32,000 nucleotides of DNA from Thiothrix winogradskyi (lineage in GTDB: Bacteria > Pseudomonadota > Gammaproteobacteria > Thiotrichales > Thiotrichaceae): NCBI RefSeq assembly GCF_021650935.1, contig NZ_CP091244.1, positions 3,305,230 through 3,337,229 on the forward strand, read 5' to 3'. Shown here piece by piece: positions 6,672 to 31,260 of the stretch. The stretch's first letter is position 1; the number at the start of each line of letters is the position of its first letter. The position numbers were made by a program, and so were the translations under genes. Below the pieces are notes generated by a model. That model was given only the letters and a program-made list of their open reading frames with translations, was not told where the DNA came from and did no database searches.

Positions 6672-6746
6672 TGCCGCTCCCTGCCTGTGGCGCTCACTCC
6701 CGCTAGGGCAAGATCGTTGAGCCGCAGGCGAATAAGTTACCTAGTA

Positions 6747-6795: not shown

Positions 6796-6901
6796 CTCTG
6801 TATGGCAGTAATATTTCGTATAGATAACGGATATTTTTCGGAATTTGAAATGGTTTCCGATGTTCTGGAAAAATCTAGCATCAGTACAGTTAGTTACATT
6901 A

Positions 6902-7891: not shown

Positions 7892-8056
7892 TACATTACT
7901 AATCCAGTTCGGAACACTACAAAACAGAATAAACCCATTTAAAACCAAATTTTCCGTTTATTATCCAGTACCTTCCATAAATTCTATTGATGACTTACAA
8001 AGTAAGTAGTAGGCTAGATTCCATCAAACCCATGAATACAAAAAAAGAGGCATCCA

Positions 8057-8527: not shown

Positions 8528-8555
8528 CATTTTACAATATCCTTAAGGTCAACAC

Positions 8556-9308: not shown

Positions 9309-9310
9309 TT

Positions 9311-9736: not shown

Positions 9737-9828
9737 ACTTAACCCATCGTAAATTTGAAATTGATAAAAGTGGCGATCATCTCATTAATTTTCCAGATTC
9801 CCGCATTTTTAAATAAACAAGGATTTTT

Positions 9829-10614: not shown

Positions 10615-10634
10615 AACCCACATAGGCTCTAACA

Positions 10635-12938
10635 ATGACAATGAAAATAAAAAATATCGTGATTTTGTTGGTATTGACCAGCAGCATATGGGTACTGCCC
10701 TCAATTGGTTTTGCTGCTGATCTTGTGGCGACAGTCAATGACCTACAAAACAGTTTTTATGACGCTGTTTCAAATTGGGTAGGGCCTTTGCAACAGGTGG
10801 CGGGGTGGTTGTTGGTAACGTTAGCGACCATCTCATTTATTTGGCAGGCTAGTTTTATGCTGCTGCGGGGTACTGACATTCAGGAATTAACGGTTGAACT
10901 GGTTCGTATGATTCTATTTGCGGGCTTTTTCTATTGGCTGATCCAGAATGCGCCCGACCTTACCAGCAGATTGATCAATGGTTGGATTTGGCTGGCTGGA
11001 GAGGCAGGAGGTTCTTCTGTATCACCCAACATTAGCCAAATACTGGCGCGGGGTGTCGATCTCGCGGGCACAATGTACGAGGTCAGTTCGGGATTCACGG
11101 TCATAGTGGCGGGTATCTTGGGTGTTATTATTGTTGTTTTATACGTGCTGATCGCTGCCAAGGCATTTTTGGTTACTCTGGAAATGTATACCGTCACGGC
11201 TGCTGGAGTCATTCTGTTGGGGTTTGGCGGTAATCAATGGACTGGGGATTACGCAAAACGTTACATCACCTACACAATGGCAACGGGAATGAAACTGTTT
11301 GTCATGTATTTGATTGTAGCGACCGGCGAGAATTTCATTAATTCGTGGGCAGCAGATAGCAAACCTGAAACATTTAACGATATGTTATCGGTGGTTGGTG
11401 TCGTGTTATTGATGTTGGTTCTGGTGTGGCAACTGCCAGATACAGTACAGGGATTGTTGTCAGGCGCAAGCCTTGGCAAAACAGAGCAGCAAGGTTCTGC
11501 TGCTGTTATGAGTTCATTCGGACAGACTGGTTCAGCCGCCGCATCGGTGGCAAGCGGTTCTGTTGGAGCTGAATTAGCAATCCGCGAGGCGCTGAAAAAC
11601 TCTGAGGGAATGCCGGGGAGCAGTTCTGGCTACCAATACAAAGCCGCCAACGCAATGAGCAATCTAGCCAATGCGGGTGCTGAGGTGCTGGGTAATCGGA
11701 TTATGGGTGACTTCAACGCTTCCAGCGGCGGCATGATGGCTTCAATGGCGCAACACATGCGCCAGCAACGTACCGGCGGTAGTGGTTTGTACGGCGGTAC
11801 GTCGTCGGGTAATGACCATATTGGTGGGTCTGCGACGGGTGGCAGTTTTGGGGCGGGTGATCCTACTACAAAACAAGGAACAGGGCCGGAAGAGGCTGAA
11901 AATGCTTCCCATGATTTTGGTGGTGATGGTGACGCAGGTGGTTCTGAGGCTGGGGCGGGTGCTGCTTCTTGGGATACGTCTAAGGTTGGCGGTAAAGAGC
12001 ATGAGTTTGGGGCGGATGATGGCGGTTCGTGGTCTTGGGATGCGTCCGGGGTAGCGGCTGCGGGTGGTGCGGGTGAGTCTGATAACCCGGCAACTCGCTA
12101 CCGTTCGCCTGCGGTGGATTTAACGCGGGGCGGTGTGCCGAGTTTTGGTGGTGGTGCTGAAAGTTCTACTGCAAAAAGTGAATCTGGGGTAGCGCCTACG
12201 TCTGCTGCTAGTGGTATTGCTGGCGGTATGGTGGGTAGTGGCAATATGGCTTCTGGTGTTGCGGCTTCTTCGCCTTCGGCTGCGTCTAGTGCTGATGAAC
12301 AAGTCTCTACTGCAAAAGGAATGACGGGTGCGGATCAAAGCGCAGGGACTTCCAATTCTTCAGGCGGCAATTCATCCAATGCTATTGGGTCAATGGTTGG
12401 GGCTGACAACATGACTTCTTCTATGGGTTCTTCCATTGGTGCTGATGCACAAGGTTCTACTACAAAAGGAATCATGGAGGTGGCGGCTGTTTCGCCTTCG
12501 GCTTCTTCATCGGTTGCGTCTAGTGCTGATGCACAAGTTTCTACTGCAAAAAGTGAATCGGTTTCTGTGGGGAATACGTCATCTGGCTCTGGTGCTGCTC
12601 CTGTTAGTTCGGCGGGGTATTTGCGTTCTGAGAGTGGGGCATCTGGCGGTTCCATGAATCAAGTACCTACTGTTAGTGCTGCTCAAAGTGTTACAGCAAG
12701 CCCTGATTTGGCGGGGACTGTGGTTGGTTCCAGCGTGGTTCAGGCTGCTACTGTTGGTGGGTTGGGTGAGCCTTCAGTGGTTTCAAGTACCATTGGTGGT
12801 AGCATGGTGGGTGCTGACAACATGGCTTCTGGTGTTGATCAAAGTTCCCTACAAACGGATGCCGAAACTTCGGACGATCCTGCAACGCGCTACCGTTCGC
12901 CTGCCGTCGATTTGACTAAGAGCAAGACGAACAGTTAG
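10635..12938 (+). CDS. trbL: TrbL/VirB6-type polytopic membrane protein with ~480-aa repetitive G/S/A-rich tail (767 aa)
   Basis: The N-terminal ~290 aa have a signal sequence and multiple TM helices with the TrbL-like block ELVRMILFAGFFYWLIQNAPDL. The C-terminal part is low-complexity with internal repeats. Confidence 0.8.
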   Translation: MTMKIKNIVILLVLTSSIWVLPSIGFAADLVATVNDLQNSFYDAVSNWVGPLQQVAGWLLVTLATISFIWQASFMLLRGTDIQELTVELVRMILFAGFFYWLIQNAPDLTSRLINGWIWLAGEAGGSSVSPNISQILARGVDLAGTMYEVSSGFTVIVAGILGVIIVVLYVLIAAKAFLVTLEMYTVTAAGVILLGFGGNQWTGDYAKRYITYTMATGMKLFVMYLIVATGENFINSWAADSKPETFNDMLSVVGVVLLMLVLVWQLPDTVQGLLSGASLGKTEQQGSAAVMSSFGQTGSAAASVASGSVGAELAIREALKNSEGMPGSSSGYQYKAANAMSNLANAGAEVLGNRIMGDFNASSGGMMASMAQHMRQQRTGGSGLYGGTSSGNDHIGGSATGGSFGAGDPTTKQGTGPEEAENASHDFGGDGDAGGSEAGAGAASWDTSKVGGKEHEFGADDGGSWSWDASGVAAAGGAGESDNPATRYRSPAVDLTRGGVPSFGGGAESSTAKSESGVAPTSAASGIAGGMVGSGNMASGVAASSPSAASSADEQVSTAKGMTGADQSAGTSNSSGGNSSNAIGSMVGADNMTSSMGSSIGADAQGSTTKGIMEVAAVSPSASSSVASSADAQVSTAKSESVSVGNTSSGSGAAPVSSAGYLRSESGASGGSMNQVPTVSAAQSVTASPDLAGTVVGSSVVQAATVGGLGEPSVVSSTIGGSMVGADNMASGVDQSSLQTDAETSDDPATRYRSPAVDLTKSKTNS

Positions 12939-13039
12939 AAAAAAACATTATAAATAAGTCATTATTTACACAAACATGATTATTAAAATCTAAACCAATC
13001 GGCTTGCATACTTGCATGAATCTTTCCAATACAGTGAAA

Positions 13040-13217
13040 CACTTCCTGCACGCGCAAAACTGACAAAATTAAAATAATCATGCACTTAATTATTCTGGCG
13101 TGTAGGAAATGCAGGAAGTTTGCAGGAAGTTTTTCCTACACGTTTAAAATTAATAACTTAGCATGTAACAATCAATGACTTACAAGCGTTTTTTGCCGTG
13201 TAGGAAATGCAGGAAGT
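13040..13217. repeat. Array of TGCAGGAAGT-type 11-bp units with an embedded 44-nt hairpin
   Basis: CGTGTAGGAAA (13099-13109) and TTTCCTACACG (13132-13142) are perfect inverted repeats around two tandem TGCAGGAAGTT units. CGTGTAGGAAATGCAGGAAGT recurs at 13197-13217. A reverse-orientation copy, ACTTCCTGCA, is at 13041-13050. Confidence 0.65.
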
Positions 13218-13267
13218 GTAGAGGGATGGAGGGGGGAGAGGGAGAAATCAGAGGGGATAATTTGAGG

Positions 13268-13297
13268 GAAAAAACCGGGTAAATCATCCCGGCTTAA
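13268..13297 (-). terminator. Weak Rho-independent terminator downstream of the P4-type integrase
   Basis: The minus strand reads CCGGG-atgattta-CCCGG followed by TTTTTT. The stem is only 5 bp. Confidence 0.35.
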
Positions 13298-13329
13298 TGG
13301 GTTATTTTAACGGAATTAAATAGCGAGTT

Positions 13330-14604
13330 TTACTTATTGTTTTTAATTTCTGGATTGCGCAAGCCGTCGAGATAATCCGCCCACGCTTGCAGCATTTCAC
13401 GCCGTTGCCGGATAGCGTCTGGACTATCCGCCCGATTGTATGCGCCCCTGACTGTTCCATCAGTGTGTGCAAGCTGTTGCTCTATCAAGTCATCATCCCA
13501 CAGCCGCTTACCCATTGGGTCGGTCATGCGATTAAGCAGCGTTGATGCCATGCCCCGGAATCCGTGCGGGGTCATGGTGTCGTTGTCATAGCCCATCGTG
13601 CGTAGTGCTGCCCTGATGCCATTGTCTGAGAGTGGCTTGCTTGCGCCGCGCTCACTAGGGAACACGTAGCGGAATCGCCCGGAATACGGTTGTATCTCCC
13701 GGAATACTTCCACGGCTTGACGGGGTAGCGGTACGGTGTGGGTTGATCGGTTCTCTTGCTTAATGTGTGTGGGTGCTTTCATCTTGGCAATCGGGATACG
13801 CCAGACAGCCGCGTCTAGGTCTATGTCTGCCCATTCCGCCGCCCGAACATTGCCGGGGCGTAACATCACCAAAGGGGACAATTTCAAGGCGCATCTAACG
13901 ACAAACGTACCTTGATAGCCGTCTATATCACGCAACAGTTGCCCGACCTGCACCGGGTCGGTAATCGCGGCATAGTGCTTCTTACTGCGGGGTTTCAGAA
14001 TCACTGAGGTGTCAATATCCGCCGCCGGGTTACGTTCTGCCAGTTCCAGCGTGACCGCGTAACGGTAGACCTGCTGAATGTATTGCTTAACCCGCCGTGC
14101 AGCATCACCAGCGCCGCGTTCTTCCACGCGCATAATCACCCTGATTATATTGGTAGGAGTAATCGCGTTTATGTTCAGGCTACCCATGAAGGGGAATACA
14201 TCCCGCTCTAAGTAGCTGATCGTGCGGGTTGTGTGGCTTTCCGACCACTGCGGTTTCATCCTCAAAAACCATTCACGCGCTATGGATTCAAAGCTATGCG
14301 CTTCAATGTCGGCTTGTGATGCCTTCACCGACTTTCGATGCTCTGAGGGGTCAACATCACGCGCCAGCAATGCCCGTGCCTCTCGGTGGCGTTCTCGTGC
14401 CTCTGCCAGCTTGATTTCAGGGTACGTGCCGATCACTAGCGTATTGCGCTTGCCGGTAGCAGGTCGGGTGTAATCGTAACGCCAGCCTTTCGCCTCTTTG
14501 CTCACCCAAAGGTATAAACCGCCGCCATCGGTGTACTTGGCTGTCTTGCCGTCTGGTTTCGGTTTGGCGTTGCGTACTGCGGTATCGGTCAAGCGGGTTT
14601 TCAC
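13330..14604 (-). CDS. int: P4-type (DUF4102 arm-binding domain) tyrosine integrase
   Basis: The N-terminus LTDTAVRNAKPKPDGKTAKYTDGGGLYLWVSKEAKGWRYDY is typical of P4-family integrases. The C-terminus has HGFRGMAST ... LAHTDGTVRGAYNR (His-x-x-Arg, His, Tyr). The likely start is GTG 14604, with a GGAG 8 nt upstream. The ORF track extends to a TTG at 14628. Confidence 0.9.
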   Translation of the reverse strand: MKTRLTDTAVRNAKPKPDGKTAKYTDGGGLYLWVSKEAKGWRYDYTRPATGKRNTLVIGTYPEIKLAEARERHREARALLARDVDPSEHRKSVKASQADIEAHSFESIAREWFLRMKPQWSESHTTRTISYLERDVFPFMGSLNINAITPTNIIRVIMRVEERGAGDAARRVKQYIQQVYRYAVTLELAERNPAADIDTSVILKPRSKKHYAAITDPVQVGQLLRDIDGYQGTFVVRCALKLSPLVMLRPGNVRAAEWADIDLDAAVWRIPIAKMKAPTHIKQENRSTHTVPLPRQAVEVFREIQPYSGRFRYVFPSERGASKPLSDNGIRAALRTMGYDNDTMTPHGFRGMASTLLNRMTDPMGKRLWDDDLIEQQLAHTDGTVRGAYNRADSPDAIRQRREMLQAWADYLDGLRNPEIKNNK

Positions 14605-14760
14605 GGTATCGACTCCATTGGGATGCAAAATGCCGTACAGAATACCGTAAAAAATGTGGGCTGGTATGGTTCTAGTGGTACTGCATGGGAAAGTAAGGGC
14701 AGTGAATGCCGTTACTTTTCATGAATTTAAGCACCGTATGGCACTCATGGAACTAATGAT

Positions 14761-14837
14761 TGGTCGGGACGATAGGATTTGAACCTACGACCCCCACACC
14801 CCCAGTGTGGTGCGCTACCAGGCTGCGCTACGCCCCG
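14761..14837 (-). tRNA. tRNA-Pro (anticodon GGG)
   Basis: The reverse complement folds as a cloverleaf. The acceptor stem is CGGGGCG/CGTCCCG, the anticodon stem CCACA/TGTGG, the anticodon loop CTGGGGG, and the T-arm GTAGG-TTCAAAT-CCTAT. The 3' CCA is encoded. Confidence 0.92.
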
Positions 14838-14888
14838 ACTTGAAGGGGAGAGAGCATACCGTAATCACACCGCAAGCTCAAGCTGAAA

Positions 14889-22317: not shown

Positions 22318-22394
22318 TGGTAGGCGTAATTGGACTCGAACCAACGACCCCCACCATGTCAAGGTGGTGCTCTAACCAACTGAGCTATACGCCT
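22318..22394 (-). tRNA. tRNA-Val (anticodon GAC)
   Basis: The reverse complement is AGGCGTATAGCTCAGTTGGTTAGAGCACCACCTTGACATGGTGGGGGTCGTTGGTTCGAGTCCAATTACGCCTACCA. It forms a cloverleaf with anticodon loop TTGACAT. Confidence 0.92.
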
Positions 22395-22489
22395 GTCGCT
22401 GAAGGAGGCAGAGTATAGCGTTATTAAAATCAAACGCAAGATTTTTTTGTACTGGCGTGACGGGTACACTGCAAAAATCATCAATACCC

Positions 22490-22517
22490 CTTGAAATCCT
22501 CCTGCCATCCCCCATCT
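22490..22517 (+). promoter_or_regulatory. Sigma-32 (RpoH) heat-shock promoter of htpG
   Basis: CCCTTGAAA (the -35 element, CTTGAAA at 22490-22496), a 13-nt spacer, then CCCCATCT (the -10 element, 22510-22517). It lies 42 nt upstream of the htpG ATG. Confidence 0.75.
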
Positions 22518-22558
22518 TGCCGACATCGAAATATACAAGATATGAGGACGCATACCCC

Positions 22559-24448
22559 ATGACGGCAACAAGCAACAAAGAAAACCTGCAATTTCAAACC
22601 GAAGTGAATCAACTGTTACACCTGATGATTCACTCGCTGTATTCCAACAAAGAAATTTTCCTGCGCGAACTCATTTCCAACGGTTCGGATGCGTGCGACA
22701 AGCTGCGTTTTGAAGCCATCGGCAACGATAGCCTTTACGAAACCGACAGCGAATTGCGCGTAGAAGTCGAATTCGACGCGGCAGCAGGCACGATCACTGT
22801 GCGCGACAACGGTATCGGCATGAGCCGCGATGAAGTCGTGACCAATATCGGCACGATTGCCAAATCCGGCACCAAAGAATTCTTGAGCAAACTGACCGGC
22901 GATGAGAAAAAAGACTCGCACATGATCGGGCAGTTCGGGGTAGGTTTCTACGCCTCCTTCATCGTTGCCGACAAAGTAACGCTAACCACGCGCCGCGCTG
23001 GGGATGCCGCTTCCGAAGGCGTGCGCTGGGAATCGGATGCGCAATCTGGCTACTCACTGGAACAAGTCGAAAAAGCTACCCGTGGTACAGAAATCGTCCT
23101 GCACTTGAAAGAAGACGAAAAGCTGCTGGCAGACGGCTGGCGTTTACGCAATATCATCCGCCAATATTCCGACCACATCCCACTGCCGGTAAACATGCGC
23201 AAAACCGAAGCCGGTGAAATCCAAGATGAATGGGAAACCGTCAACAAAGCCAACGCGCTGTGGACACGCGCCAAATCCGAAGTGAAGGACGAGGAATACC
23301 AAGAATTCTACAAGCACGTTTCGCACGACTGGGAAGACGCGCTGGCATGGTCACACAACCGCGTCGAAGGCAAATACGAATACACGTCCCTGCTGTACCT
23401 GCCTTCCAAAGCCCCGTTCGACATGTTCGACCGCGATAACACCCACGGCTTGAAGCTTTACGTACAGCGCGTTTTCATTATGGAAGACAAAGAATTCAAG
23501 CTGATGCCACGCTATTTGCGTTTCGTGCGCGGTGTGCTGGATTCCAACGACCTGCCGCTGAACGTATCGCGTGAAATCCTGCAAGGCAACAAAATCATCG
23601 AGAACATGAAAAATGCTTCGGTGAAAAAAGTCATTGGTTTGCTGGAAAACATGATTGCCAACGAGCCAGACAAGTACCAAAAATTCTGGAAAGAATTCGG
23701 CAAAGTCCTCAAAGAAGGCCCAGGCGAAGACTTCAGCAACCGCGAACAAATCGCCAAACTGCTGCGTTTTGCCTCCACAAACAACGATAGTGCTGAACAA
23801 ACCGTTTCCTTGCCGGACTACATGGCTCGCATGAAAGAAGGTCAGGACAAAATCTACTACATCACTGCCGACAGCCACACCGCTGCGAAAAACAGCCCAC
23901 ATCTGGAAGTGTTCCGCAAAAAAGGCATCGAAGTGCTGTTACTGTCTGACCGCGTAGACGAATGGCTGGTACAGCATTTGATGGAATTTGAAGGCAAATC
24001 GCTGCAATCCGTCGCCAAAGGCAACCTTGACCTTTCCAAACTCGAAAGCGAGGAAGATAAAAAAGAACAAGAAAAAATCGAGGCAGAAGCCAAAAACATG
24101 GTCGAACACATCAAAACGGCATTGGGCGAAAAAGTCGGCGAAGTGCGCGTATCGCACCGTCTGACCACCTCACCATCGTGCATCGTGCTAAACGACCACG
24201 ACATGGCGTTGTACATGCAGCAATTGATGAAACAAGCCGGTCACGAAATGCCTGACACCAAGCCTGCGCTGGAAATCAACCCAACACATCCGTTGCTCAA
24301 GCGCATGGAAGCCGAAACCGATGACGAGCGTTTTGGCGAATGGTCAAGCATCTTACTCGATCAGGCAATTCTGGCAGAAGGCGGACAACTCGACGATCCG
24401 GCAGGCTTTGTTAACCGCTTGAATAAGCTGATGTTGGCAATGGGTTAA
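22559..24448 (+). CDS. htpG: Molecular chaperone HtpG (Hsp90)
   Basis: [34 protein letters not shown] is nearly identical to the E. coli HtpG N-terminus. The start was moved to ATG 22559; the ORF-track start at 22457 lies upstream of the promoter. Confidence 0.96.
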
Positions 24449-24496: not shown

Positions 24497-24522
24497 AAAG
24501 CCCCGTTATTGGGGCTTTTTTG
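24497..24522 (+). terminator. Rho-independent terminator of htpG
   Basis: AAAAGCCCC-gttatt-GGGGCTTTTTT. Confidence 0.75.
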
Positions 24523-24679: not shown

Positions 24680-25096
24680 ATGGCTATTTACCGATTGTTA
24701 ATCTGCGCAACCCTTTTGGTGAGCCTAAACGGCTGTCAATCCAGCACCAGCGACTGCCCGCCTGTCCCTCTTGCCAAACAAGATGCAGCAAGTGAAACAT
24801 TGCCCCAACAGCTTCAGCAGCAACAGCTTACCCTCGAAACGTTGCAAGCCAAATTGAATGACACGGAACAACGTCTGCAACAAAACCAGCAACAGCTTGC
24901 CGATAAAACCCAGCAACTGGATGCGCTAACCCAAGACAAGAGTGCCCAGCAAGTCGCCACCACCACCAGCACGCTCACCGACTTAGAAGAGCAGCTAGCG
25001 AAACAGCAACAAGAAATCGAGCGCTTGAATACCGCACTGCGCCAAGCCGAGGATGCCAAGGCAGCCGTTGCCCCTGCATCCATGCCCGCATACTAA
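24680..25096 (+). CDS. Q-rich coiled-coil lipoprotein (138 aa)
   Basis: MAIYRLLICATLLVSLNGC has a signal peptide and a lipobox-like LNGC. The rest is Q/L-rich heptad-like sequence. The gene ends 15 nt before the giant ORF. Confidence 0.6.
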   Translation: MAIYRLLICATLLVSLNGCQSSTSDCPPVPLAKQDAASETLPQQLQQQQLTLETLQAKLNDTEQRLQQNQQQLADKTQQLDALTQDKSAQQVATTTSTLTDLEEQLAKQQQEIERLNTALRQAEDAKAAVAPASMPAY

Positions 25097-25111
25097 CAAC
25101 GAGGGTAAACC

Positions 25112-28100
25112 ATGACTAAGCGCCATTACCTGCACAAGGGATTGCTACTTATCCTGATGCTGCTGACGTGTTTACTGCCTGCTGCCCATGCCGCAGTTAC
25201 CGCGAACCTAACCGTGCAAGTCGTCGATGGCACCAACGCTGATGCGCCCTTAGCCAATCATGAAATCCACGTCCGCGAAGTCTTAGCCGACGGCAGCAAT
25301 GTGTGGCGCACTAAAGCCAAAACCGATACCAATGGGCAAGTCGCTTTCACGTTGGATGGTTTGGGCGCTGGCAAACGCTATGTCTTACAAGCCAAAAGCT
25401 CCCGTGCCAATAAAAATCGACAAAGTGCCGTGATCGACACCGCTGGCGCGATGACATTCCGGGTTGGTTTTCCCCTGCTAAACGTCACCTTATTGGATGC
25501 ATTGACTCAACAGCCGCTGTCTGACATCAGCGTCACGGCTTACAAACAGGAAAACGGCAAAGCCATCTGGTTAGACAACCTGAAAACGAACAGCAGCGGG
25601 CTGGTCATATTTGAACTCGAAGCACTCAGCCAAGGTATCCCCGTCACCTTGAATGCCAAGGTATTCAACGGCTTTACTGCCACGCAAACCCACACACAAC
25701 CCGGCTCAGCAAAGTTCACCTTGGGCGACACAGTTGCCACCCTGGTTGATGGTATTCAAGCCGGATTACCGCCATTAGCTAATTACGGCGTACAAGTCCG
25801 GGAATTGTTAAGCGACGGTAAAACAGCATGGTTTGCCAGTGTTACCACGGATGCGAAAGGGCAATTACGCCTGAATCTACCGCCCAACCGCCAGTTCCGT
25901 CTCGAAGCCAAAAGCACGTTCAACAACGCTTACAAATTCAGTCAACCGTTGCAAGCCGGGCAGCAACAGACCTTTCAAGTTGGCACGCCTTTGCTGCAAG
26001 CCACGCTGAAAGACGCGGTTTCTGGCGCAGTACTTCCGGCAGTAAAAGTCACCGCTTACCTCATCAAAGCCGACGGTAAAAGTGTTTGGCGCACCGAAAC
26101 CAGCACAGATGCCAACGGTCAAGTGCGTTTCGACCTTCCCGAACTGCTGGAAGGTGACAAAGCACAATTATTTGCCGCCCCCTACAACGCCTACCGTGCT
26201 GCCAGCCCTATTGTCAGTCAACCCGGCAATCTGGAATTCAAGGTGGGGGAAACACGGGTGAAAGTAATGGACAGCACCCAAACACCTGCCAAACCCTTAG
26301 CCAACCAAAAAGTGACAATCGCCGAAAAAATGGCAGATGGCAAAGAAGTGTGGCGCAGCGAAGCTACCACCGATGCCGCCGGTCTATTACGCCTAAGCCT
26401 GTTTGCGCAGAATGATAAACGCACTTACGTTCTCAAAGCGAAAAGCCCGTTTAACCAAAGCTGGAAAACCAGTCAACCTTTGCAACAAGCGGGTGAATAT
26501 ACGTTTACCGTAGGTAGCCAACCTTTGCCCGTCACGCTCAAAGACCTTAGTACCGGCAATCCGTTAGCCAATATCCAAATCACCGCCTATCGCGTAGTCG
26601 CAGGCGGCAAACCGGAATGGATTACCCGCCAAACCACCGATGCTAACGGGCGCACCGGCTTTGACTTACCCGAATTAAGCAATGGCGGCACGATTCGCCT
26701 GCAAGCCACCGCCTTCAACAACTTCGGCGCGTGGAGTCAAGACATTACCAGCACCGCCGCGTTTGAATTCGGCGTCGGTAGTATGCAAATTAGCGTCAAA
26801 GACGGTACACAAGCCGATGGCGTATTGCTACCAAATCTGGAGGTGCATATCCGTGAAAACATGGCAGATGGCACGACGGCTTGGTTCAACAAAGCAATAA
26901 CAGATACGCAAGGTAATCTAAAAATCGACCTGCCGGGGCTGGATAAAGGGCGCAAATTTTTCCTGCAAGCCATGCACCCCGTGACCAAGCGCTACAAGAG
27001 CAGCCAAACGCTCGAAAAAGCGGGTGCGCATACCTTCATGGTCGGTACACGCCTCATGGCGGTAACACTCTACAATGCCATTACTGCTGCCCCTTTAGCC
27101 GATAAAGACATTACCCTGCAAGAAATACAAGCCGGAAACACTAGCACTTGGCCTTACGTTTGGCGCAGCTCTGCCAAGACTGATGCCAAGGGTATTGCAA
27201 TCATTGATTCCGAATTACTGTCACAAGCAGGCTTGAATTTTGTACTGAGTGTCACGCCTTACAACACCGGCAGGATCATGACTGCACCGTTTCCAGCGCA
27301 AACCTATAGCGTTGATTTTCCGGTAGGGACAATCCCTGTCACCCTCGTTGACCGCGATAATGGCAACGCCATCATGCCGAATCAGCGCATTGATGCTTAT
27401 GAAATTTCCAGCGATGGCAAACTCACTTGGCTCAAAAACGGCACAACCGATACTAACGGGCAAGCCATTTTCGATCTGGAAACCCTACGCAAAGGCACGC
27501 GCCATGTGTTCAAGGCATATAATCCCTTTGGCAACAAACAATACCCGTACAGCCGCATTATCACCACAACCGGTGCGGTCACTTTTGCTATCGGGCGCAC
27601 TGACAAAGGTGAGTTGGATCTCAAACCACCTGCACTGGAAATCCTCTCCCCTAGCAAAGCCAGTGTTGGCACTATCGGCTTTGAACTCAGTGGTAAAGCC
27701 AGCGATGACAAAGCGCTGGACAAAGTTGACATTACCCTCGTGAGTGGCAGCCTCACTGCCACGCATACTGCGACGTTGGATAAAATCACCGGCAACTGGA
27801 AACTCGCAGTAAGCAGCACTGCCCTGCAAACCGGGCAAACCCTCAACGTCACCGCCATAGCCGTTGATGCAACCGGCAATACCACCTCTGTCACCCGCAG
27901 CTACCAAGTGCTCGCGGATAAGGATGCGCCCAGTATTACCATCAGTTCGCACCACGCCGATGAAACGGTGTTAAAAACCGGCTTCCTGCTGCAAGGCACT
28001 GTCACCGATGACACTGAGGTCAGCACCTTGCAACTCTCGGTTACACAAGATAGCGGTAAAGTCTTGGTAACACCCAAAAACCTCACGCCAACCCCGGCAG

Positions 28101-29548
28101 GTCATTGGGCGTATGCCTTGCCCAACGGCATTCTCAGCCAAGACAGCAAAATTACCGTTAGCCTCACCGCTACCGACACCAGTGGCAAACAAAGTAGTAA
28201 TACACTGGCGCTCAACGTAGCAGGCGCACACGAAGAACACCGGCAATTACTCAGCCGCACCACGTTTGGCATCACCGATGCACTGTTGCAGGAAGTCACG
28301 CAATTAGGCACAACCGAGTTCCTAGAGCAACAATTGAATCCAAATAAACTGGATGACAGCGCGTTTGATGCTCGCCTGACCAACGCCAATCCAGCTACCC
28401 TCACGGAATTCCAGACCGCTACTCTGCAACGCATGATCGGTAGCCGCCGCCAGTTGCAGGAAGTAATGACCTGGTTCTGGGAAAACCATTTCAACACCGA
28501 TTTCCGCAAAACCGGCAATAAGCTGCTGTATGAATTGGCAGAAAACGACGTATTCCGTGCTAACGCACTCGGTAATTTCCATCACTTACTCACGGCTAGT
28601 GCCAAAAGTCCGGCGATGTTGTATTACCTCGATAACGTGAAAAACGTCAAAGCCAATGCCAACGAAAACTACGCCCGCGAATTACTGGAATTGCATACGG
28701 TCGGTGTGGATGGTGGTTACACCCAAAAAGAAGTGGATACGCTGGCAGAAGTCTTCACCGGCTGGCAAGTGCAGAATGACCGCTTCTTCTTTAATGCCGC
28801 GCAACACAACAGCAGTGCCAAAGTGTTCTGGGGCAATGCGATTCCCGCAGGTGGTGTGGATGAAGGCGAACGGGTGCTGGATATTCTGGCGCGTCACCCT
28901 GCTACGGCTAACTACCTGTGTTCCAAACTGGTCACGTATTTTGTCAGCGATCAGCCCGTTAACAGCCTGCAAGCACGTTGTGCCAGCACGTTTTTGGAAC
29001 AAGATGCTGCCCCGGATCAAATCGCGCAAGTGTTGCGGGTTATCCTGACTTCGCCGGAGTTTTACGCGACAGCAAACATTAATAGCAAAGTCAAAACACC
29101 CCTGGAATTCGTCACCGCCAGCGTGCGTGCTACCCACGCCCAAGGCACTCACGCTGACTTACCAGCAGCCCTGAAACGCATGGGTATGGATTTGTACCAA
29201 TACCCCCTACCGACCGGCTACTCCGATACCGGCGATGACTGGGTAAGTTCAGCCGCGCTGCAAGAACGGGTGCGCTTCGTCAATCTGTTAGCCAATGCGC
29301 GTAGCGGTGCAACCTATCTGGATACCACTAAGCTTTTCAACGCCCAACAAGCTATCACCGCCGAAAGCATTGCCAGCGATTTACTCAACTGGACGATTGG
29401 CGGTTATTACGCTGAACTGGAATGGCAAACCGCGCTGGAAGTCTTGAACGCTGAAGGTGCTTTCAACCCGAATGCCAGCAATGCTGATGCGCGGATTCGC
29501 GAAACCGTGGGCACTGTTTTGAGTTACCCGGAATTCAACTACCAATAA
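25112..29548 (+). CDS. Secreted 1478-aa protein: nine tandem ~90-aa repeats + two Ig-like domains + C-terminal DUF1800 domain
   Basis: It has a signal peptide ending AAHA|A and repeats carrying a recurring TD(T/A)(N/K)GQ..F.L motif. The C-terminal blocks LLSRTTFG, VMTWFWENHFNT and ELHTVGVDGGYTQKEVDTLAEVFTGW are typical of DUF1800. Confidence 0.85.
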   Translation: MTKRHYLHKGLLLILMLLTCLLPAAHAAVTANLTVQVVDGTNADAPLANHEIHVREVLADGSNVWRTKAKTDTNGQVAFTLDGLGAGKRYVLQAKSSRANKNRQSAVIDTAGAMTFRVGFPLLNVTLLDALTQQPLSDISVTAYKQENGKAIWLDNLKTNSSGLVIFELEALSQGIPVTLNAKVFNGFTATQTHTQPGSAKFTLGDTVATLVDGIQAGLPPLANYGVQVRELLSDGKTAWFASVTTDAKGQLRLNLPPNRQFRLEAKSTFNNAYKFSQPLQAGQQQTFQVGTPLLQATLKDAVSGAVLPAVKVTAYLIKADGKSVWRTETSTDANGQVRFDLPELLEGDKAQLFAAPYNAYRAASPIVSQPGNLEFKVGETRVKVMDSTQTPAKPLANQKVTIAEKMADGKEVWRSEATTDAAGLLRLSLFAQNDKRTYVLKAKSPFNQSWKTSQPLQQAGEYTFTVGSQPLPVTLKDLSTGNPLANIQITAYRVVAGGKPEWITRQTTDANGRTGFDLPELSNGGTIRLQATAFNNFGAWSQDITSTAAFEFGVGSMQISVKDGTQADGVLLPNLEVHIRENMADGTTAWFNKAITDTQGNLKIDLPGLDKGRKFFLQAMHPVTKRYKSSQTLEKAGAHTFMVGTRLMAVTLYNAITAAPLADKDITLQEIQAGNTSTWPYVWRSSAKTDAKGIAIIDSELLSQAGLNFVLSVTPYNTGRIMTAPFPAQTYSVDFPVGTIPVTLVDRDNGNAIMPNQRIDAYEISSDGKLTWLKNGTTDTNGQAIFDLETLRKGTRHVFKAYNPFGNKQYPYSRIITTTGAVTFAIGRTDKGELDLKPPALEILSPSKASVGTIGFELSGKASDDKALDKVDITLVSGSLTATHTATLDKITGNWKLAVSSTALQTGQTLNVTAIAVDATGNTTSVTRSYQVLADKDAPSITISSHHADETVLKTGFLLQGTVTDDTEVSTLQLSVTQDSGKVLVTPKNLTPTPAGHWAYALPNGILSQDSKITVSLTATDTSGKQSSNTLALNVAGAHEEHRQLLSRTTFGITDALLQEVTQLGTTEFLEQQLNPNKLDDSAFDARLTNANPATLTEFQTATLQRMIGSRRQLQEVMTWFWENHFNTDFRKTGNKLLYELAENDVFRANALGNFHHLLTASAKSPAMLYYLDNVKNVKANANENYARELLELHTVGVDGGYTQKEVDTLAEVFTGWQVQNDRFFFNAAQHNSSAKVFWGNAIPAGGVDEGERVLDILARHPATANYLCSKLVTYFVSDQPVNSLQARCASTFLEQDAAPDQIAQVLRVILTSPEFYATANINSKVKTPLEFVTASVRATHAQGTHADLPAALKRMGMDLYQYPLPTGYSDTGDDWVSSAALQERVRFVNLLANARSGATYLDTTKLFNAQQAITAESIASDLLNWTIGGYYAELEWQTALEVLNAEGAFNPNASNADARIRETVGTVLSYPEFNYQ
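25193..27610 (+). repeat. Nine tandem ~90-aa coding repeats (prealbumin/carboxypeptidase-regulatory-like) within the giant ORF
   Basis: Residues 28-833 divide into nine units. Two subtypes alternate: V.V.DG...PLAN..V.VRE..ADG...W and LL..TL.DA.....L....VTAY. All carry the motif W.....TD..G...FDLP.L. Confidence 0.7.
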
Positions 29549-29562
29549 GGCGGGGAAACACT

Positions 29563-30783
29563 ATGCAACGTCGTGATTTTTTAAAGTACATGCTGTCATC
29601 CACCGTCGCGGGGAGCGCTTGGTTCGCTAACAACGCCCATGCCGCAGCAGCCCCGAAAAGCTTGATCGTGATTTTCCAGCGTGGTGGCTGTGATGGCTTG
29701 AACGTCGCAGTACCTTACGGAGAAGCCGCGTATTATCGCCTGCGCCCTACCCTTGCGATTCCCCGCGCCGGGCAAAGCGATGGCGCGTTGGATCTGAACG
29801 GCTTTTTGGGGCTACACCCCGCGATGAGTGCGTTACACAAGCTGTATCAGCAAGGCAATGTGGCGGTCTTTCCGGCAACACATTACCCCAATGCCAGCCT
29901 CTCACATTTCGACAGTGAGCACTTTATCGAAAGCGGTGTTATCAGCAAAACCAGCAACGGCTGGCTAAACCGCCATTTAGAAACCACCAGCCATAGCAGC
30001 GGAATGCGCGGGGTAAGCTTCGGCACAGAGATTGCGCAAGCGTTACGTGGCAATGTGCCGGTGTCTTCCTTTAGTGACTTAGCAGCCTTCGACTTGGATA
30101 TGGCCGCCAGTGCCGAAGCACGCATGACCGCACGTTTGCAAAAAATTTACGCACAAAGCCCCCATCTGGGTGGCAATAACGGAGTACGCATCCAAAATGC
30201 GGGGCGTACCTTGCTTGCCGACCTTGGGCTGGTGCAACAGCTTGATGTGAAAGGCTACCAACCTGCAAATGGCGCAATTTATCCCAACAATAGCTACGGC
30301 ACACAATTACGCCAAGCCGCACAATTAATCAAAGCGGGGGTAGGGTTGGAACTGGCAACTGTGAATATCGGCGGTTGGGACACCCACCAAACACAAGGCA
30401 ATCAAGTGGGTTATCAAGCCAACATGCTAAAGATTTTTGCGGACGGCATCGCCGCACTGTATGCGGATTTAGGCACAGCCATGCAAGATGTCATGATCCT
30501 GACCATGACCGAATTCGGGCGCACTGCTGAAGAGAACGGCAGCCAAGGCACTGACCACGGCAACGCAGGGTGCTGGTTTGCGCTCGGTGGCGGGGTACGC
30601 GGCGGTATATACGGGCAATGGCCGGGGCTGGAAACAGCGCAACTTTACAAAGGGCGCTATCTGGCACATTCAGTCGATTTTCGCGATATTTTCGGGGAAA
30701 TTGCCAGCAAGCATTTGCACAATAACGGGCTAGCTAGTTTATTACCTGGGCATAGCCACACGCCTCTGAATTTTCTGGCATAA
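29563..30783 (+). CDS. DUF1501-family (sulfatase-fold-like) protein with Tat signal
   Basis: It has a twin-arginine leader MQRRDFLKYM...AHAAAAP. The block EFGRTAEENGSQGTDHGNAGCWFALGGGVRGGIYG is typical of DUF1501. Confidence 0.85.
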   Translation: MQRRDFLKYMLSSTVAGSAWFANNAHAAAAPKSLIVIFQRGGCDGLNVAVPYGEAAYYRLRPTLAIPRAGQSDGALDLNGFLGLHPAMSALHKLYQQGNVAVFPATHYPNASLSHFDSEHFIESGVISKTSNGWLNRHLETTSHSSGMRGVSFGTEIAQALRGNVPVSSFSDLAAFDLDMAASAEARMTARLQKIYAQSPHLGGNNGVRIQNAGRTLLADLGLVQQLDVKGYQPANGAIYPNNSYGTQLRQAAQLIKAGVGLELATVNIGGWDTHQTQGNQVGYQANMLKIFADGIAALYADLGTAMQDVMILTMTEFGRTAEENGSQGTDHGNAGCWFALGGGVRGGIYGQWPGLETAQLYKGRYLAHSVDFRDIFGEIASKHLHNNGLASLLPGHSHTPLNFLA

Positions 30784-30789
30784 ACACCA

Positions 30790-31260
30790 TCACCCGCCCA
30801 ATGCCAGCAAACGCGCCTTGACGTCCGCCAGTTCGGTCTGCAAGGCGACCAATTCGGTCACATCTTTTTGCACCCCGATGTAATACATCACGCCATCTTC
30901 CTTATCGAAAAATGGGCTGATGCTTAAATCATTCCAGAATAAACTGCCGTCTTTACGGTAATTGCGCAAGATCACTCTGACCGACTGTTCGGCTTCGATA
31001 GCAGCGCGAATTTTCTGCAATTCTGCCTGATCACGGTCGGCGTTTTGCAGGAAACGGCAGTCCTGGTACAAACACTCTTCCGCGCTGTAGCCTGTCATTT
31101 GTTCAAAAGCATGGTTAACATACAGCAAAATCGTATCATTGCCTTCGCGTTCCGCAATCGTAATACCGTGCTCGGCATAGTCGATCAGGGATTGCAGCAA
31201 TTCCGGGCGAATGGCAGAATTTTTAGTGGGTTCCATAGCGCGTATCCAATCATGAATCAT
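30790..31260 (-). CDS. Short LOV-domain blue-light photoreceptor (PpSB1-LOV-like)
   Basis: GITIAEREGNDTILLYVNHAFEQMTGYSAEECLYQDCRFLQNADRDQ...ILRNYRKDGSLFWNDLSISP...YYIGVQKDVTE contains the LOV motif CRFLQ. The photoactive Cys codon is at 31057-31059. There is a C-terminal J-alpha-like helix and no effector domain. The start is ATG 31260 or ATG 31236. Confidence 0.85.
   Translation of the reverse strand: MIHDWIRAMEPTKNSAIRPELLQSLIDYAEHGITIAEREGNDTILLYVNHAFEQMTGYSAEECLYQDCRFLQNADRDQAELQKIRAAIEAEQSVRVILRNYRKDGSLFWNDLSISPFFDKEDGVMYYIGVQKDVTELVALQTELADVKARLLALGG

What the first reader, a model, noticed from the sequence alone, without database searches (positions are those of the whole stretch)
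24680..30783. Operon of lipoprotein + giant repeat-decorated DUF1800 protein + Tat-exported DUF1501 protein
DUF1800/DUF1501 gene pairs are widespread but functionally uncharacterised. In my experience DUF1800 proteins are about 450-500 aa. Here the DUF1800 domain (about nt 28232-29545) is the C-terminal third of a 1478-aa secreted protein. The N-terminus consists of nine tandem ~90-aa prealbumin/carboxypeptidase-regulatory-like repeats of two alternating subtypes, followed by two Ig-like domains.

The gene is preceded at 15 nt by a Q-rich coiled-coil lipoprotein. It is followed at 14 nt by the DUF1501 partner, which has a twin-arginine signal. The architecture suggests a cell-surface or periplasm-spanning stalk presenting the DUF1800 module to its sulfatase-fold partner. 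This is an unusual, possibly informative variant of an unknown-function system.
Basis: partly seen in the sequence, partly recalled or inferred. Interest (0 to 1): 0.65.

Follow-up and report, generated by a model that had tools for sequence, protein, structure and literature searches.

The report
Giant repeat-bearing DUF1800 with DUF1501 partner
A Thiothrix chromosome carries a real three-gene operon for exported proteins: a small coiled-coil lipoprotein, a 1478-residue protein made of nine beta-sandwich repeats and two Ig-like domains ending in a DUF1800 domain of unknown fold, and an alkaline-phosphatase-superfamily enzyme; it is a well-populated but unstudied variant of a widespread gene pair whose function is still unknown.

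Summary
Three co-directional genes lie 15 and 14 nt apart. They encode a Gln-rich coiled-coil lipoprotein, a 1478-aa Sec-exported protein and a Tat-exported DUF1501 protein. The large protein has nine diverged ~90-aa prealbumin-like repeats, two Ig-like modules and a C-terminal DUF1800 (394 bits). There is no DNA-level repetition, and orthologues occur in complete Thiothrix genomes, so it is not an assembly artefact.

New findings:
- The array is family-wide, SP-[B](AB)n-B-Ig-Ig-DUF1800, with 0 to 17 repeats, mostly even numbers.
- It grows by duplicating whole AB pairs. A 17-repeat relative is R1-R2-(R3R4)x5-R5..R9.
- Sister DUF1800 proteins carry PA14, LamG, Calx-beta or cadherin-like arrays instead.
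- The DUF1800 model (pLDDT 94) has no PDB structural relative.
- DUF1501 has the alkaline-phosphatase-superfamily fold, with Ser114, DxH and DH motifs and no sulfatase CxPxR.
- The lipoprotein occurs only in the Thiotrichales-type clade.
- The array's N-terminus has no anchor.

Best reading (about 0.4): an extracytoplasmic two-protein esterase or transferase acting on an envelope or extracellular polymer, with an interchangeable spacer or targeting array. The "anchored stalk" idea is only partly supported. This is a new variant of a known, uncharacterised kind, of moderate interest.

The parts
24499..24522 (+). Intrinsic terminator of the upstream htpG gene (AGCCCC-gttatt-GGGGCT followed by a T run). 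It marks the upstream boundary of the operon.
   Evidence: Read directly from the sequence. The consensus scan did not list it. htpG was identified by Pfam and NCBIfam.
24680..25096 (+). Gene 1: a 138-aa lipoprotein precursor. It has a signal peptide with lipobox LNGC (Cys19) and a mature part that is about 21% Gln with a heptad-repeat coiled coil. The longer ORF from 24644 is probably not used.
   Evidence: The Cys is aligned and the lipobox is canonical in four orthologues. Heptad z=4.9. There are only sub-threshold hits to coiled-coil families.
25112..25192 (+). Gene 2, Sec (SPase I) signal peptide, aa 1-27 (…LLPAAHA|AV).
   Evidence: The same layout is seen in all full-length giant homologues.
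25193..27619 (+). Gene 2, nine tandem prealbumin/transthyretin/CnaB-like beta-sandwich repeats (R1-R9, aa 28-836) in the pattern A-B-A-B-A-B-A-B-B. Unit boundaries start at nt 25193, 25472, 25730, 25988, 26252, 26519, 26783, 27050 and 27332.
   Evidence: The best PDB sequence hit is the collagen adhesin 6fwv (E=1.6e-6). Pfam hits are all below the gathering thresholds.
27620..28225 (+). Gene 2, two Ig-like modules (aa 837-936 and 937-1038). They are retained even in family members that have no repeats.
   Evidence: Big_7 at 25.7 bits, above its cut-off; Big_3_3 at 22.7 bits, below; 0-repeat members have DUF1800 starting at about residue 245-390, which is inferred to be room for these two modules. 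Consensus.
28226..29548 (+). Gene 2, C-terminal DUF1800 module (aa 1039-1478) plus the stop codon. It is mostly alpha-helical with a few short beta strands. Conserved motifs are FWxNHF and NENYxRExxEL; H194, R301 and R348 (domain numbering) are also conserved.
   Evidence: (394 bits), (AF2 pLDDT 94, pTM 0.93; no PDB structural match; all family-wide conserved residues kept).
29563..30783 (+). Gene 3: a DUF1501 protein of 406 aa. It has a Tat signal (MQRRDFLK…AHA|AAA, about aa 1-27) and an alkaline-phosphatase-superfamily core. Invariant residues are C43-D44, S114-H115-F116, D273-x-H275 and D331-H332.
   Evidence: AF2 pLDDT 85; Foldseek hits to sulfatases, alkaline phosphatases, EptC and LtaS; no CxPxR.

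Best explanation
This is a self-contained operon for an extracytoplasmic protein set.

Gene 3 (DUF1501) is a Tat-exported metallo-enzyme of the alkaline-phosphatase superfamily. Its conserved residues fit a Ser-nucleophile, two-metal phosphoryl- or sulfuryl-transfer site.

Gene 2 is Sec-exported. It ends in a canonical DUF1800 module, a mostly helical fold with no solved relative and a cluster of invariant His, Glu, Asn, Arg and Lys residues. I infer that this module works as the obligatory partner of DUF1501, either as a substrate-binding or specificity subunit or as a co-catalytic subunit. The inferred substrate is an anionic ester-bearing polymer of the envelope or the surroundings, most likely a glycan.

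The N-terminal nine prealbumin-like repeats plus two Ig-like modules are not catalytic. They form an interchangeable, length-variable spacer or targeting array that evolves by duplication of A-B repeat pairs. In sister lineages the array is replaced by lectin- or adhesin-type arrays.

Gene 1, a coiled-coil lipoprotein, is a Thiotrichales-clade accessory that probably tethers or organises the complex at a membrane.

Shown: the export signals, the domain identities, the fold class of DUF1501, the array grammar and its mode of growth, the modular swapping, and the conservation of the pair.

Inferred: a physical DUF1800-DUF1501 complex, the chemistry, the polymer substrate and the role of the lipoprotein.
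For: Pairing of the two genes:
- DUF1800 is followed within 500 nt on the same strand by DUF1501 in 66 of 85 loci from many phyla. Gaps are often 3-30 nt, and five loci have 4-nt overlaps.
- The pair is kept while the flanking genes differ completely.
This indicates that the two genes have diversified together.

DUF1501 as an enzyme:
- Foldseek places the model in the alkaline-phosphatase superfamily.
- Invariant D44 follows strand beta-1. S114 sits at the N-cap of helix 115-124 after strand 100-107. D273xH275 follows strand 264-271, and D331H332 is also invariant.
- The Tat signal is invariant.

DUF1800 as a functional module:
- All residues that are at least 90% conserved in both 64 ordinary and 138 giant DUF1800 proteins are present in the window protein. 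Many are charged or metal-ligand types: H88, R111, N146, E147, N148, R151, E152, E155, H194, K234, K288, R301 and R348.

The array as an interchangeable, non-catalytic module:
- Repeat numbers run 0, 2, 4, …, 17 on the same Ig-Ig-DUF1800 body.
- The A/B alternation is family-wide.
- The 17-repeat P0004 is R1-R2-(R3R4)x5-R5..R9, with internal copies 64-86% identical.
- Relatives about 50% identical in DUF1800 carry instead cadherin-like/Big_9 with LamG, CHB_HEX_C and PKD; or Calx-beta x5; or PA14 x5 with InlB-B repeats x10 and GLEYA.

Polymer or glycan hints:
- Those lectin-type modules.
- Neighbourhoods with glycosyltransferase and rhamnose genes (L086) or porphyranase and sulfatase genes (L085).
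- Published linkage of the pair to bacterial chitin-synthase operons (PMC5122149).
- In the parallel PSCyt/PSD1 + DUF1501 module, the partner protein carries LamG or F5/8-C domains (PMC3542564).

Extracytoplasmic location of the family:
- Ordinary DUF1800 proteins carry Sec, Tat or lipobox signals.
Against: - No direct evidence of a DUF1800-DUF1501 complex was obtained.
- DUF1800 has no structural or sequence relative of known function, so its role as partner, enzyme or binder is open.
- The geometry of the DUF1501 catalytic residues was not inspected. TM-scores to known enzymes are only 0.3-0.42.
- The window's own array contains no recognisable lectin module, and its genomic context (htpG, LOV) gives no functional clue.
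- Nineteen of 85 DUF1800 loci had no adjacent DUF1501, though this is partly a contig-end effect.
Confidence: 0.4

Rival explanations
1. Anchored stalk. The coiled-coil lipoprotein anchors the N-terminal end of the repeat array to a membrane. The eleven beta-sandwich domains form a rigid rod that spans the periplasm or projects from the surface. The rod holds the DUF1800 head, with bound DUF1501, at a set distance, acting as a molecular ruler.
For: - The repeats are closest to CnaB/prealbumin stalk domains of adhesins.
- Array length varies in discrete AB steps while the terminal repeats R1-R2 and R5-R9 stay orthologous, as expected if the ends have docking roles.
- A heptad coiled-coil lipoprotein is encoded 15 nt upstream and is conserved in the clade.
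- Some ordinary DUF1800 proteins are themselves lipoproteins, so membrane tethering recurs in the family.
Against: - No giant member has an N-terminal anchor or lipobox.
- The lipoprotein is absent from giant loci outside the 9/17-repeat clade (0 of 4), so anchoring cannot be the general role of the array.
- Eleven to nineteen extended beta-sandwich domains would exceed a typical periplasmic width. This is an inference from a domain size of about 4 nm and was not measured.
- No interaction between the lipoprotein and R1 was tested.
Confidence: 0.2
2. Surface or secreted adhesin or polymer-binding protein. The beta-sandwich array together with DUF1800 binds a surface or matrix polymer. DUF1501 is an independent enzyme that is merely co-transcribed.
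For: Sister proteins carry classical adhesion and lectin modules such as cadherin-like, PA14, GLEYA, Calx-beta and LamG. Thiothrix and Leucothrix are attached, filamentous bacteria (general knowledge, not tested here).
Against: - The near-universal tight linkage, sometimes with overlapping stop and start codons, of DUF1800 with DUF1501 argues for a joint function. This holds even for short DUF1800 proteins without any array.
- The DUF1800 conservation pattern, with invariant His, Glu, Asn and Arg motifs, looks like an active or ligand site rather than a generic adhesive surface.
- No outer-membrane or secretion-system signal was identified.
Confidence: 0.12
3. Alpha-2-macroglobulin-like protease trap, or a redox (cytochrome-linked) module as proposed for the PSCyt/PSD1 + DUF1501 systems of PVC bacteria.
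For: The whole protein gives an E=1.1e-17 summed hit to the bMG3 macroglobulin domain, with MG2/MG4 traces. The PVC paper suggests electron transport for the analogous module.
Against: - There is no thioester CxEQ motif. The protein has only three Cys residues and no TED or bait region.
- The bMG3 score is the sum of nine weak beta-sandwich matches, each below threshold.
- None of the three proteins has a CxxCH haem motif.
Confidence: 0.03
4. Assembly or annotation artefact: the long ORF is a concatenation or collapse of repeats.
For: None was found. In one Thiothrix subterranea assembly the orthologue is split into fragments of 602, 749 and 763 aa, so frameshifts do occur in this gene.
Against: - There is no DNA tandem repeat in the gene.
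- The repeats share only 20-45% amino-acid identity.
- Proteins of the same 1478 aa length, 91-98% identical to the window's, occur in several independent assemblies. The window's exact sequence is on record from a 4.34-Mb chromosome. Positional orthology of all nine repeats holds in Thiothrix nivea and Leucothrix.
Confidence: 0.01

Closest known systems
Canonical DUF1800 (PF08811) + DUF1501 (PF07394) gene pair, widespread in bacteria and uncharacterised
   Same: - Same gene order, with a tight gap.
- DUF1501 carries a Tat signal.
- DUF1800 is exported.
- All family-wide conserved residues are present in the window protein.

   Different: - The DUF1800 protein is about 2.5 times the usual length (1478 aa against a median of 577).
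- The extra length is an SP-(AB)4-B prealbumin-like array plus two Ig-like modules.
- An additional coiled-coil lipoprotein gene lies upstream.

PSCyt1/PSCyt2/PSD1 + DUF1501 modules of Planctomycetes and Verrucomicrobia (PMC3542564)
   Same: A Tat/signal-bearing DUF1501 enzyme is paired with a large exported partner that is often decorated with carbohydrate-binding or Ig-like modules. Its function is also unknown.
   Different: The partner here is DUF1800, not PSCyt/PSD1. There is no CxxCH cytochrome motif. Whether DUF1800 and PSD1 are homologous was not tested.
Alkaline-phosphatase superfamily enzymes (type-I sulfatases, alkaline phosphatase, NPP, phosphonate monoester hydrolase, EptC, LtaS)
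   Same: - The DUF1501 model matches their core fold. There are 90 PDB hits at E<=1e-3 with probabilities of about 1.0.
- A conserved Asp follows strand beta-1.
- A nucleophile-position residue sits at a helix N-cap.
- DxH and DH motifs are present.
   Different: - No sequence-level similarity to any solved member.
- TM-scores are only 0.3-0.42.
- The sulfatase C/S-x-P-x-R motif is absent.
- There is an invariant Cys43 next to the metal-ligand Asp.
- It appears to need a DUF1800 or PSD partner gene.
CnaB/prealbumin-like stalk repeats of Gram-positive adhesins and pilins (e.g. collagen adhesin 6fwv; Pfam SpaA, CarboxypepD_reg, bMG3)
   Same: Tandem beta-sandwich units of about 90 aa. The best PDB sequence match is a collagen adhesin (E=1.6e-6). 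Pfam hits are weak.
   Different: - Every repeat is below the Pfam gathering thresholds.
- There is no conserved isopeptide Lys or Asn/Asp triad.
- The host is Gram-negative, with no sortase signal.
- The repeats follow a strict two-subtype A/B grammar.
Braun's lipoprotein (Lpp)-type coiled-coil lipoproteins; PA2816-family Gln-rich protein (NF041511)
   Same: A small lipoprotein whose mature part is a heptad coiled coil. There is a weak compositional hit to NF041511.
   Different: - There is no C-terminal Lys for peptidoglycan linkage; the protein ends …SMPAY.
- NF041511 scores 16.2 bits against a cut-off of 50.
- It is about twice as long as Lpp, and is Gln-rich.

Membership tests
DUF1800 (PF08811) | Profile match above Pfam's gathering score | tested here: met
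   394 bits against 26.1, aa 1045-1476, covering profile positions 1-418 of 419.
DUF1800 (PF08811) | Family-wide conserved motifs (FWxNHF, NENYxRExxEL, H194, R301, R348) | tested here: met
   All positions that are at least 90% conserved in both 64 ordinary and 138 giant members carry the same residue in the window protein.
DUF1501 (PF07394) | Profile match above Pfam's gathering score | tested here: met
   120.7 bits against 27, aa 32-379.
DUF1501 (PF07394) | Twin-arginine export signal | tested here: met
   MQRRDFLK is present. R3 and R4 are invariant in 43 homologues, with consensus MxRRDFLK.
Alkaline-phosphatase superfamily (for the DUF1501 protein) | Core alpha/beta fold | tested here: met
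   AF2 model pLDDT 85. Foldseek against the PDB gives 90 hits at E<=1e-3, all sulfatases, alkaline phosphatases, PMH, EptC, LtaS or YejM.
Alkaline-phosphatase superfamily (for the DUF1501 protein) | Metal-ligand Asp after beta-1, nucleophile at a helix N-cap, and downstream Asp/His ligands in the correct geometry | tested here: inconclusive
   Invariant D44, S114, D273/H275 and D331/H332 lie at the expected secondary-structure positions. Three-dimensional geometry and metal binding could not be examined.
Type-I (formylglycine) sulfatase | C/S-x-P-x-R signature at the nucleophile | tested here: not met
   The window protein has no [CS]xPxR or [CS]x[PA]xR. Only 2 of 43 homologues contain any such string anywhere.
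Pfam prealbumin-like repeat families (CarboxypepD_reg PF13620, bMG3 PF11974, SpaA PF17802, Transthyretin PF00576) | Single repeat scoring above the family's gathering score | tested here: not met
   The best per-repeat scores are 12-21.5 bits against cut-offs of 23-35. Whole-protein scores exceed the cut-offs only by summing nine weak matches. The fold class is supported, but family membership is not.
Bacterial alpha-2-macroglobulin | Thioester CxEQ motif / thioester domain | tested here: not met
   No CxEQ. Cys occurs only at positions 20, 1270 and 1290.
CnaB-type isopeptide stalk domain | Conserved Lys / Asn(Asp) / Glu(Asp) isopeptide triad | tested here: not met
   The invariant repeat columns are W, T, G, F and G only. 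No Lys column is conserved in more than 6 of 9 repeats.
PSCyt/PSD1 + DUF1501 module | Cytochrome-c CxxCH motif and PSD1 domain in the partner | tested here: not met
   None of the three proteins has CxxCH. Pfam finds no PSCyt or PSD domain. Remote homology between DUF1800 and PSD1 was not tested.
Bacterial lipoprotein (gene 1) | Signal peptide ending in a lipobox with an invariant Cys | tested here: met
   The window has LNGC. Orthologues have LASC, LSAC, LAAC or CAAC at the aligned Cys. No dedicated predictor was available.
Lpp (Braun's lipoprotein) | C-terminal Lys for covalent peptidoglycan attachment | tested here: not met
   The C-terminus is …ASMPAY.
PA2816-family Gln-rich protein (NF041511) | Profile score above NCBIfam's cut-off | tested here: not met
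   16.2 bits against a cut-off of 50.

The most novel reading that the evidence does not exclude
The [B](AB)n-B array is a genetically tunable molecular spacer. In Thiotrichales it is docked by a dedicated coiled-coil lipoprotein. It positions a previously unrecognised two-protein envelope enzyme at a defined distance within or beyond the cell envelope. That enzyme consists of DUF1800, a fold with no solved relative, and DUF1501, a Ser-nucleophile member of the alkaline-phosphatase superfamily. Repeat number would then be matched to envelope or sheath architecture. The pair would define a new, very widespread class of exported polymer-modifying esterases or transferases, with more than 14,000 DUF1800 clusters.
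Probability: 0.15. Interest if true: 0.7.

Novelty: new variant of a known kind. Interest (0 to 1): 0.45.

Why it matters
DUF1800/DUF1501 is one of the more abundant uncharacterised exported gene pairs in bacteria.

The giant subfamily offers three handles on the problem:
- The DUF1800 module tolerates wholesale swapping of its N-terminal array, including for lectin-type modules. This points to a polymeric, probably glycan, target outside the cytoplasm.
- The DUF1501 motifs predict testable chemistry: a Ser114 nucleophile and two Asp/His metal sites, without a formylglycine sulfatase signature.
- The AB-pair expansion series from 0 to 17 repeats is a natural experiment on spacer length.

The high-confidence DUF1800 model with no PDB neighbour also marks it as a worthwhile structural target. 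None of this yet amounts to a function, and the locus itself is already annotated in public databases, so the value is as a lead rather than a discovery.

Tried and rejected
- Self-BLASTP of the N-terminal 1045 aa found only the identity hit. The repeats are too diverged for BLAST, so I used manual boundaries with MAFFT and HMMs instead.
- Tandem Repeats Finder on the DNA found nothing in the gene. This rules out a recent or assembly-derived repeat.
- PDB sequence searches with the DUF1800 domain, the DUF1501 protein and a 43-sequence DUF1501 profile gave no meaningful hits.
- Foldseek of the DUF1800 model against the PDB gave a best E of 1.1 and a TM-score of 0.13. Against viral models it found only another DUF1800.
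- The sigma-70 promoter scan found nothing upstream of gene 1, and it did not list the htpG terminator that is visible by eye.
I used it for the adjacency statistics instead.
- I looked for an intrinsic anchor (lipobox or TM segment) at the N-terminus of giant homologues and found none. This weakened the anchored-stalk idea.
- I looked for DUF1800-DUF1501 fusions among 210 DUF1800 proteins and found none.
- I considered Tat 'hitch-hiking' of DUF1800. I rejected it because ordinary DUF1800 proteins carry their own Sec, Tat or lipoprotein signals.
- I considered the macroglobulin, cytochrome and isopeptide-stalk readings. I rejected them because the defining motifs are absent.
- Genomic context gave no consistent neighbour beyond the cassette.
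- A complex prediction could not be run.

Full report

Yes. The window has three co-directional ORFs:
- 24644/24680-25096, 150 or 138 aa.
- 25112-29548, 1478 aa.
- 29563-30783, 406 aa.

The gaps between them are 15 and 14 nt. Upstream, the htpG gene ends at 24448 and is followed by a hairpin and T-run terminator at about 24499-24522. Downstream, a convergent short LOV/PAS gene ends 6 nt after the DUF1501 stop codon. Genes 2 and 3 have GAGGG and GGGGA Shine-Dalgarno sequences. The unit is therefore a compact operon in core chromosome, with G+C of about 0.52 like its surroundings.

Pfam confirms DUF1800 at aa 1045-1476 (E=1.3e-117) and DUF1501 in the neighbour (E=1.1e-34).

The nine N-terminal repeats are real. 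They are 86-96 aa long and 20-45% identical. Each scores between 1e-17 and 1e-35 against a repeat HMM, though that HMM was built from these same repeats. There are two subtypes. Odd units resemble each other (35-45%), and so do even units (30-41%), more than odd resembles even (20-34%). R9 is B-like, so the pattern is (AB)4-B.

There is no DNA-level repeat. The identical protein is on record from a 4.34-Mb chromosome, and 74-91% identical orthologues occur in complete Thiothrix subterranea, T. lacustris and T. nivea genomes. An assembly artefact is excluded.

**2. What are the parts?**

*Repeats.* As single units the repeats fall below every Pfam gathering threshold. They hit CarboxypepD_reg, bMG3, SpaA, Transthyretin and Big_1 at 12-21 bits. 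A profile of the nine units finds a collagen adhesin (6fwv, E=1.6e-6) and transthyretin-like proteins in the PDB. They are prealbumin/CnaB-class beta-sandwiches of an unclassified family. They lack an isopeptide triad, and the protein has no thioester motif.

*Ig-like modules.* Two modules of about 100 aa follow the repeats. The first passes Big_7 and the second is sub-threshold for Big_3_3.

*DUF1800 module.* It models with high confidence as a mostly alpha-helical domain with a few short beta strands (pLDDT 94, pTM 0.93). It has no structural neighbour in the PDB (best E 1.1, TM 0.13) and no sequence neighbour. Its only match in the viral model library is another DUF1800. It keeps every residue that is at least 90% conserved across both ordinary and giant DUF1800 proteins. 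These include FWxNHF, NENYxRExxEL, H194, K234, K288, R301 and R348. So it is a canonical and presumably functional DUF1800.

*DUF1501.* The protein has an invariant twin-arginine motif. Its model (pLDDT 85) matches the alkaline-phosphatase superfamily only. The matches include carrageenan, steroid and choline sulfatases, E. coli and Vibrio alkaline phosphatases, phosphonate monoester hydrolase, EptC, LtaS and YejM, with 90 hits at E<=1e-3.

The invariant residues sit where that superfamily places its catalytic machinery:
- D44 follows strand beta-1.
- S114 is at the N-cap of the helix that follows strand 100-107.
- D273-x-H275 follows strand 264-271.
- D331-H332 is also invariant.

The formylglycine sulfatase signature C/S-x-P-x-R is absent. 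I therefore read it as a Ser-nucleophile, probably two-metal, phosphoryl- or sulfuryl-transfer enzyme. This is an inference, because the geometry could not be checked.

*Lipoprotein.* Gene 1 encodes a lipoprotein precursor. The Cys aligns with canonical lipoboxes in the orthologues. The mature part is 21% Gln, free of Pro and Gly in its core, and significantly heptad-periodic (z=4.9; z is 3.5-4.6 in the four orthologues). It is not Lpp, because it has no C-terminal Lys. It is not a PA2816-family member either, at 16 bits against a cut-off of 50.

**3. How unusual is it?**

An exhaustive search with the DUF1800 module finds 14,434 cluster representatives at E<=1e-3 and 3,372 at E<=1e-30. Among the 150 nearest:
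- 79 are at least 1000 aa long.
- 101 have DUF1800 starting at or beyond residue 240.
- 75 contain at least two of these repeats.
- DUF1800 is always at the extreme C-terminus.

Searching with the array alone retrieves almost exclusively DUF1800 proteins. The only exceptions are four hits of 569-1330 aa with no DUF1800 match, probably fragments. So this repeat family is dedicated to DUF1800.

Named hosts include Thiothrix spp., Leucothrix arctica and Saccharobesus litoralis, plus MAGs of Deltaproteobacteria, Binatia, Gammaproteobacteria and Methylomarinum. Ordinary DUF1800 ORFs from 76 other genomes have a median of 577 aa and a range of 425-916.

**4. New structure in the data**

*(a) The array has a grammar.* DUF1800 starts at roughly 30 + 90n + 210 residues. 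The architecture is SP-(repeat)n-Ig-Ig-DUF1800, with n = 0, 2, 4, 6, 8, 10, 12, 14, 16 or 17. Even counts outnumber odd ones 93 to 30, and 22 of the odd cases are the 9-repeat Thiotrichales-type clade. Subtype HMMs give dominant patterns of BABABABABABB, BABABB, BABABABB and ABABABABB, which generalise to [B](AB)n-B.

*(b) The array grows by AB pairs.* The 17-repeat relative P0004 is 62% identical overall. Its repeats map onto the window's as R1, R2, (R3,R4)x5, R5, R6, R7, R8, R9. Its internal copies 5-8 and 9-12 are 64-86% identical to each other. Length therefore changes by internal duplication of whole AB units, while the terminal repeats stay orthologous.

*(c) The array is interchangeable.* Relatives about 50% identical in DUF1800 carry other N-terminal arrays:
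- Big_9/cadherin-like x6 with LamG x2, CHB_HEX_C and PKD.
- Calx-beta x5.
- Big_13/fn3.
- PA14 x5 with InlB-B repeats x10 and GLEYA.

These are typical extracellular glycan-binding or adhesion modules.

*(d) The array's N-terminus is free.* Every full-length giant has an SPase-I signal, repeat 1 begins a few residues later, and none has a lipobox or TM anchor.

*(e) The lipoprotein is clade-specific.* It is present upstream in the window, T. nivea, Leucothrix and two metagenomic relatives (5 of 5). It is absent in Saccharobesus, a Binatia MAG and two others (0 of 4).

**5. The pair as a unit**

In 85 DUF1800 loci, 66 have a DUF1501 ORF within 500 nt downstream on the same strand. Gaps are commonly 3-30 nt, and five loci have a 4-nt overlap. 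The flanking genes differ completely between giant loci:
- htpG and LOV in the window.
- lolCDE and comEC in T. nivea.
- TRAP transporter genes in Leucothrix.
- Glycosyltransferase and rhamnose genes in L086.
- Porphyranase and sulfatase genes in Saccharobesus.

Many of the closest DUF1501 homologues are encoded on the same contigs as giant DUF1800 proteins, as judged by matching contig lengths. This indicates that the two genes have diversified together.

Ordinary DUF1800 proteins have their own Sec, Tat (13 of 77) or lipoprotein signals, so the family is extracytoplasmic in general. No DUF1800-DUF1501 fusion was seen.

The literature offers no function. Sixteen papers mention either DUF. The most relevant ones note linkage to bacterial chitin-synthase operons (PMC5122149) and a parallel PSCyt/PSD1 + DUF1501 module whose partner also carries LamG or F5/8-C domains (PMC3542564).

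**6. Most likely mechanism (confidence about 0.4)**

I propose an exported two-protein enzyme system. DUF1501 supplies alkaline-phosphatase-type ester chemistry and is loaded or folded in the cytoplasm, which explains the Tat signal. DUF1800 supplies a conserved charged pocket for substrate binding or co-catalysis. The N-terminal array gives reach or targeting towards a polymeric, probably glycan, substrate in the envelope or outside the cell. In Thiotrichales a coiled-coil lipoprotein additionally tethers or organises the system.

Shown: the signals, the folds, the conservation, the array grammar, the modular swapping and the linkage of the pair.

Inferred: the complex, the chemistry, the substrate and the lipoprotein's role.

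It is not general, because the array has no anchor and the lipoprotein is not conserved outside that clade. The adhesin-only reading (about 0.12), the macroglobulin or redox readings (about 0.03) and the artefact reading (about 0.01) are less likely, for the reasons listed with each.

**7. Novelty and score**

The locus is already annotated in public databases as 'DUF1800 family protein' and 'DUF1501 domain-containing protein'. It belongs to a known but uncharacterised kind. The giant (AB)n-array subfamily, its pair-wise expansion, the modular replacement by lectin-type arrays, the clade-specific lipoprotein and the lack of any solved relative for DUF1800 are not described in the searchable literature.

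I rate it a new variant of a known kind, with interest 0.45. It is a useful lead into an abundant unknown system, but it is not in itself surprising, and no function has been established.

Noticed in passing
window 1-14840: An integrative or conjugative genomic island sits next to tRNA-Pro(GGG) at 14761-14837. A tyrosine integrase with an Arm-DNA-binding domain (13330-14628, - strand) abuts the tRNA. The island also has a second integrase (279-1415, -), a weak Rha-like match (below threshold), a TraY/Arc protein, a zeta-toxin kinase (3565-4170), KfrA (4546-5451), a DDE transposase fragment (7442-7861), DUF5338, a ParA-like ATPase, TraM and a 767-aa TrbL/VirB6 protein (10635-12938). G+C drops to 0.40-0.43 at 6-10 kb, against about 0.52 elsewhere.
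   Followed up: partly
window 30790-31260 (- strand): A stand-alone short LOV/PAS protein of 156 aa converges on the operon, ending 6 nt from the DUF1501 stop codon. It matches the YtvA-family blue-light photoreceptor model at 152 bits, below the cut-off of 250, and PAS_9 at E=4e-21. It has no output domain.
   Followed up: no
Thiothrix subterranea assembly with a 4,204,657-bp contig (cluster members P0333, P0335, P0340): In this one assembly the orthologue of the giant gene is split into products of 602, 749 and 763 aa. This is either a frameshifted pseudogene in that strain or a sequencing error in a long gene.
   Followed up: no
L086 4616-5056 versus the gene called from 5001 (GCA_000372885.1): The ORF called as a separate 146-aa upstream protein actually encodes the signal peptide and first repeats of the giant DUF1800 protein in another frame. 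The cause is a frameshift or a mis-called start. This locus lies inside a glycosyltransferase and dTDP-rhamnose gene cluster.
   Followed up: partly
BFVD entry A0A6J5M749: A DUF1800 family protein of 568 aa is annotated on an uncultured Caudovirales phage contig. It matches the window's DUF1800 model at TM 0.78. It may be an auxiliary gene or host contamination of the viral bin.
   Followed up: no
L002 939-5696 (Binatia MAG): Instead of the small coiled-coil lipoprotein, this giant DUF1800 locus is preceded by two other lipoproteins. One is 233 aa. The other is 1325 aa, has a poly-Gly linker after the lipobox Cys, a repetitive sequence that looks beta-rich, and a Pro/Thr-rich tail. Neither has a Pfam hit on record.
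   Followed up: no
window 22457-24448 (+) and 22318-22394 (-): The htpG ORF as listed starts at a GTG and gives 663 aa, but the HtpG profile match begins at residue 43, so the true start is probably downstream. tRNA-Val(GAC) lies between thrS and htpG.
   Followed up: no
DUF1501 protein, residue 43 (window 29689-29691): An invariant Cys sits directly before the putative metal-ligand Asp (motif GGCDGxN) in all 43 homologues aligned. Typical alkaline-phosphatase-superfamily members, as I recall them, do not have this feature, and its role is unexplained.
   Followed up: no
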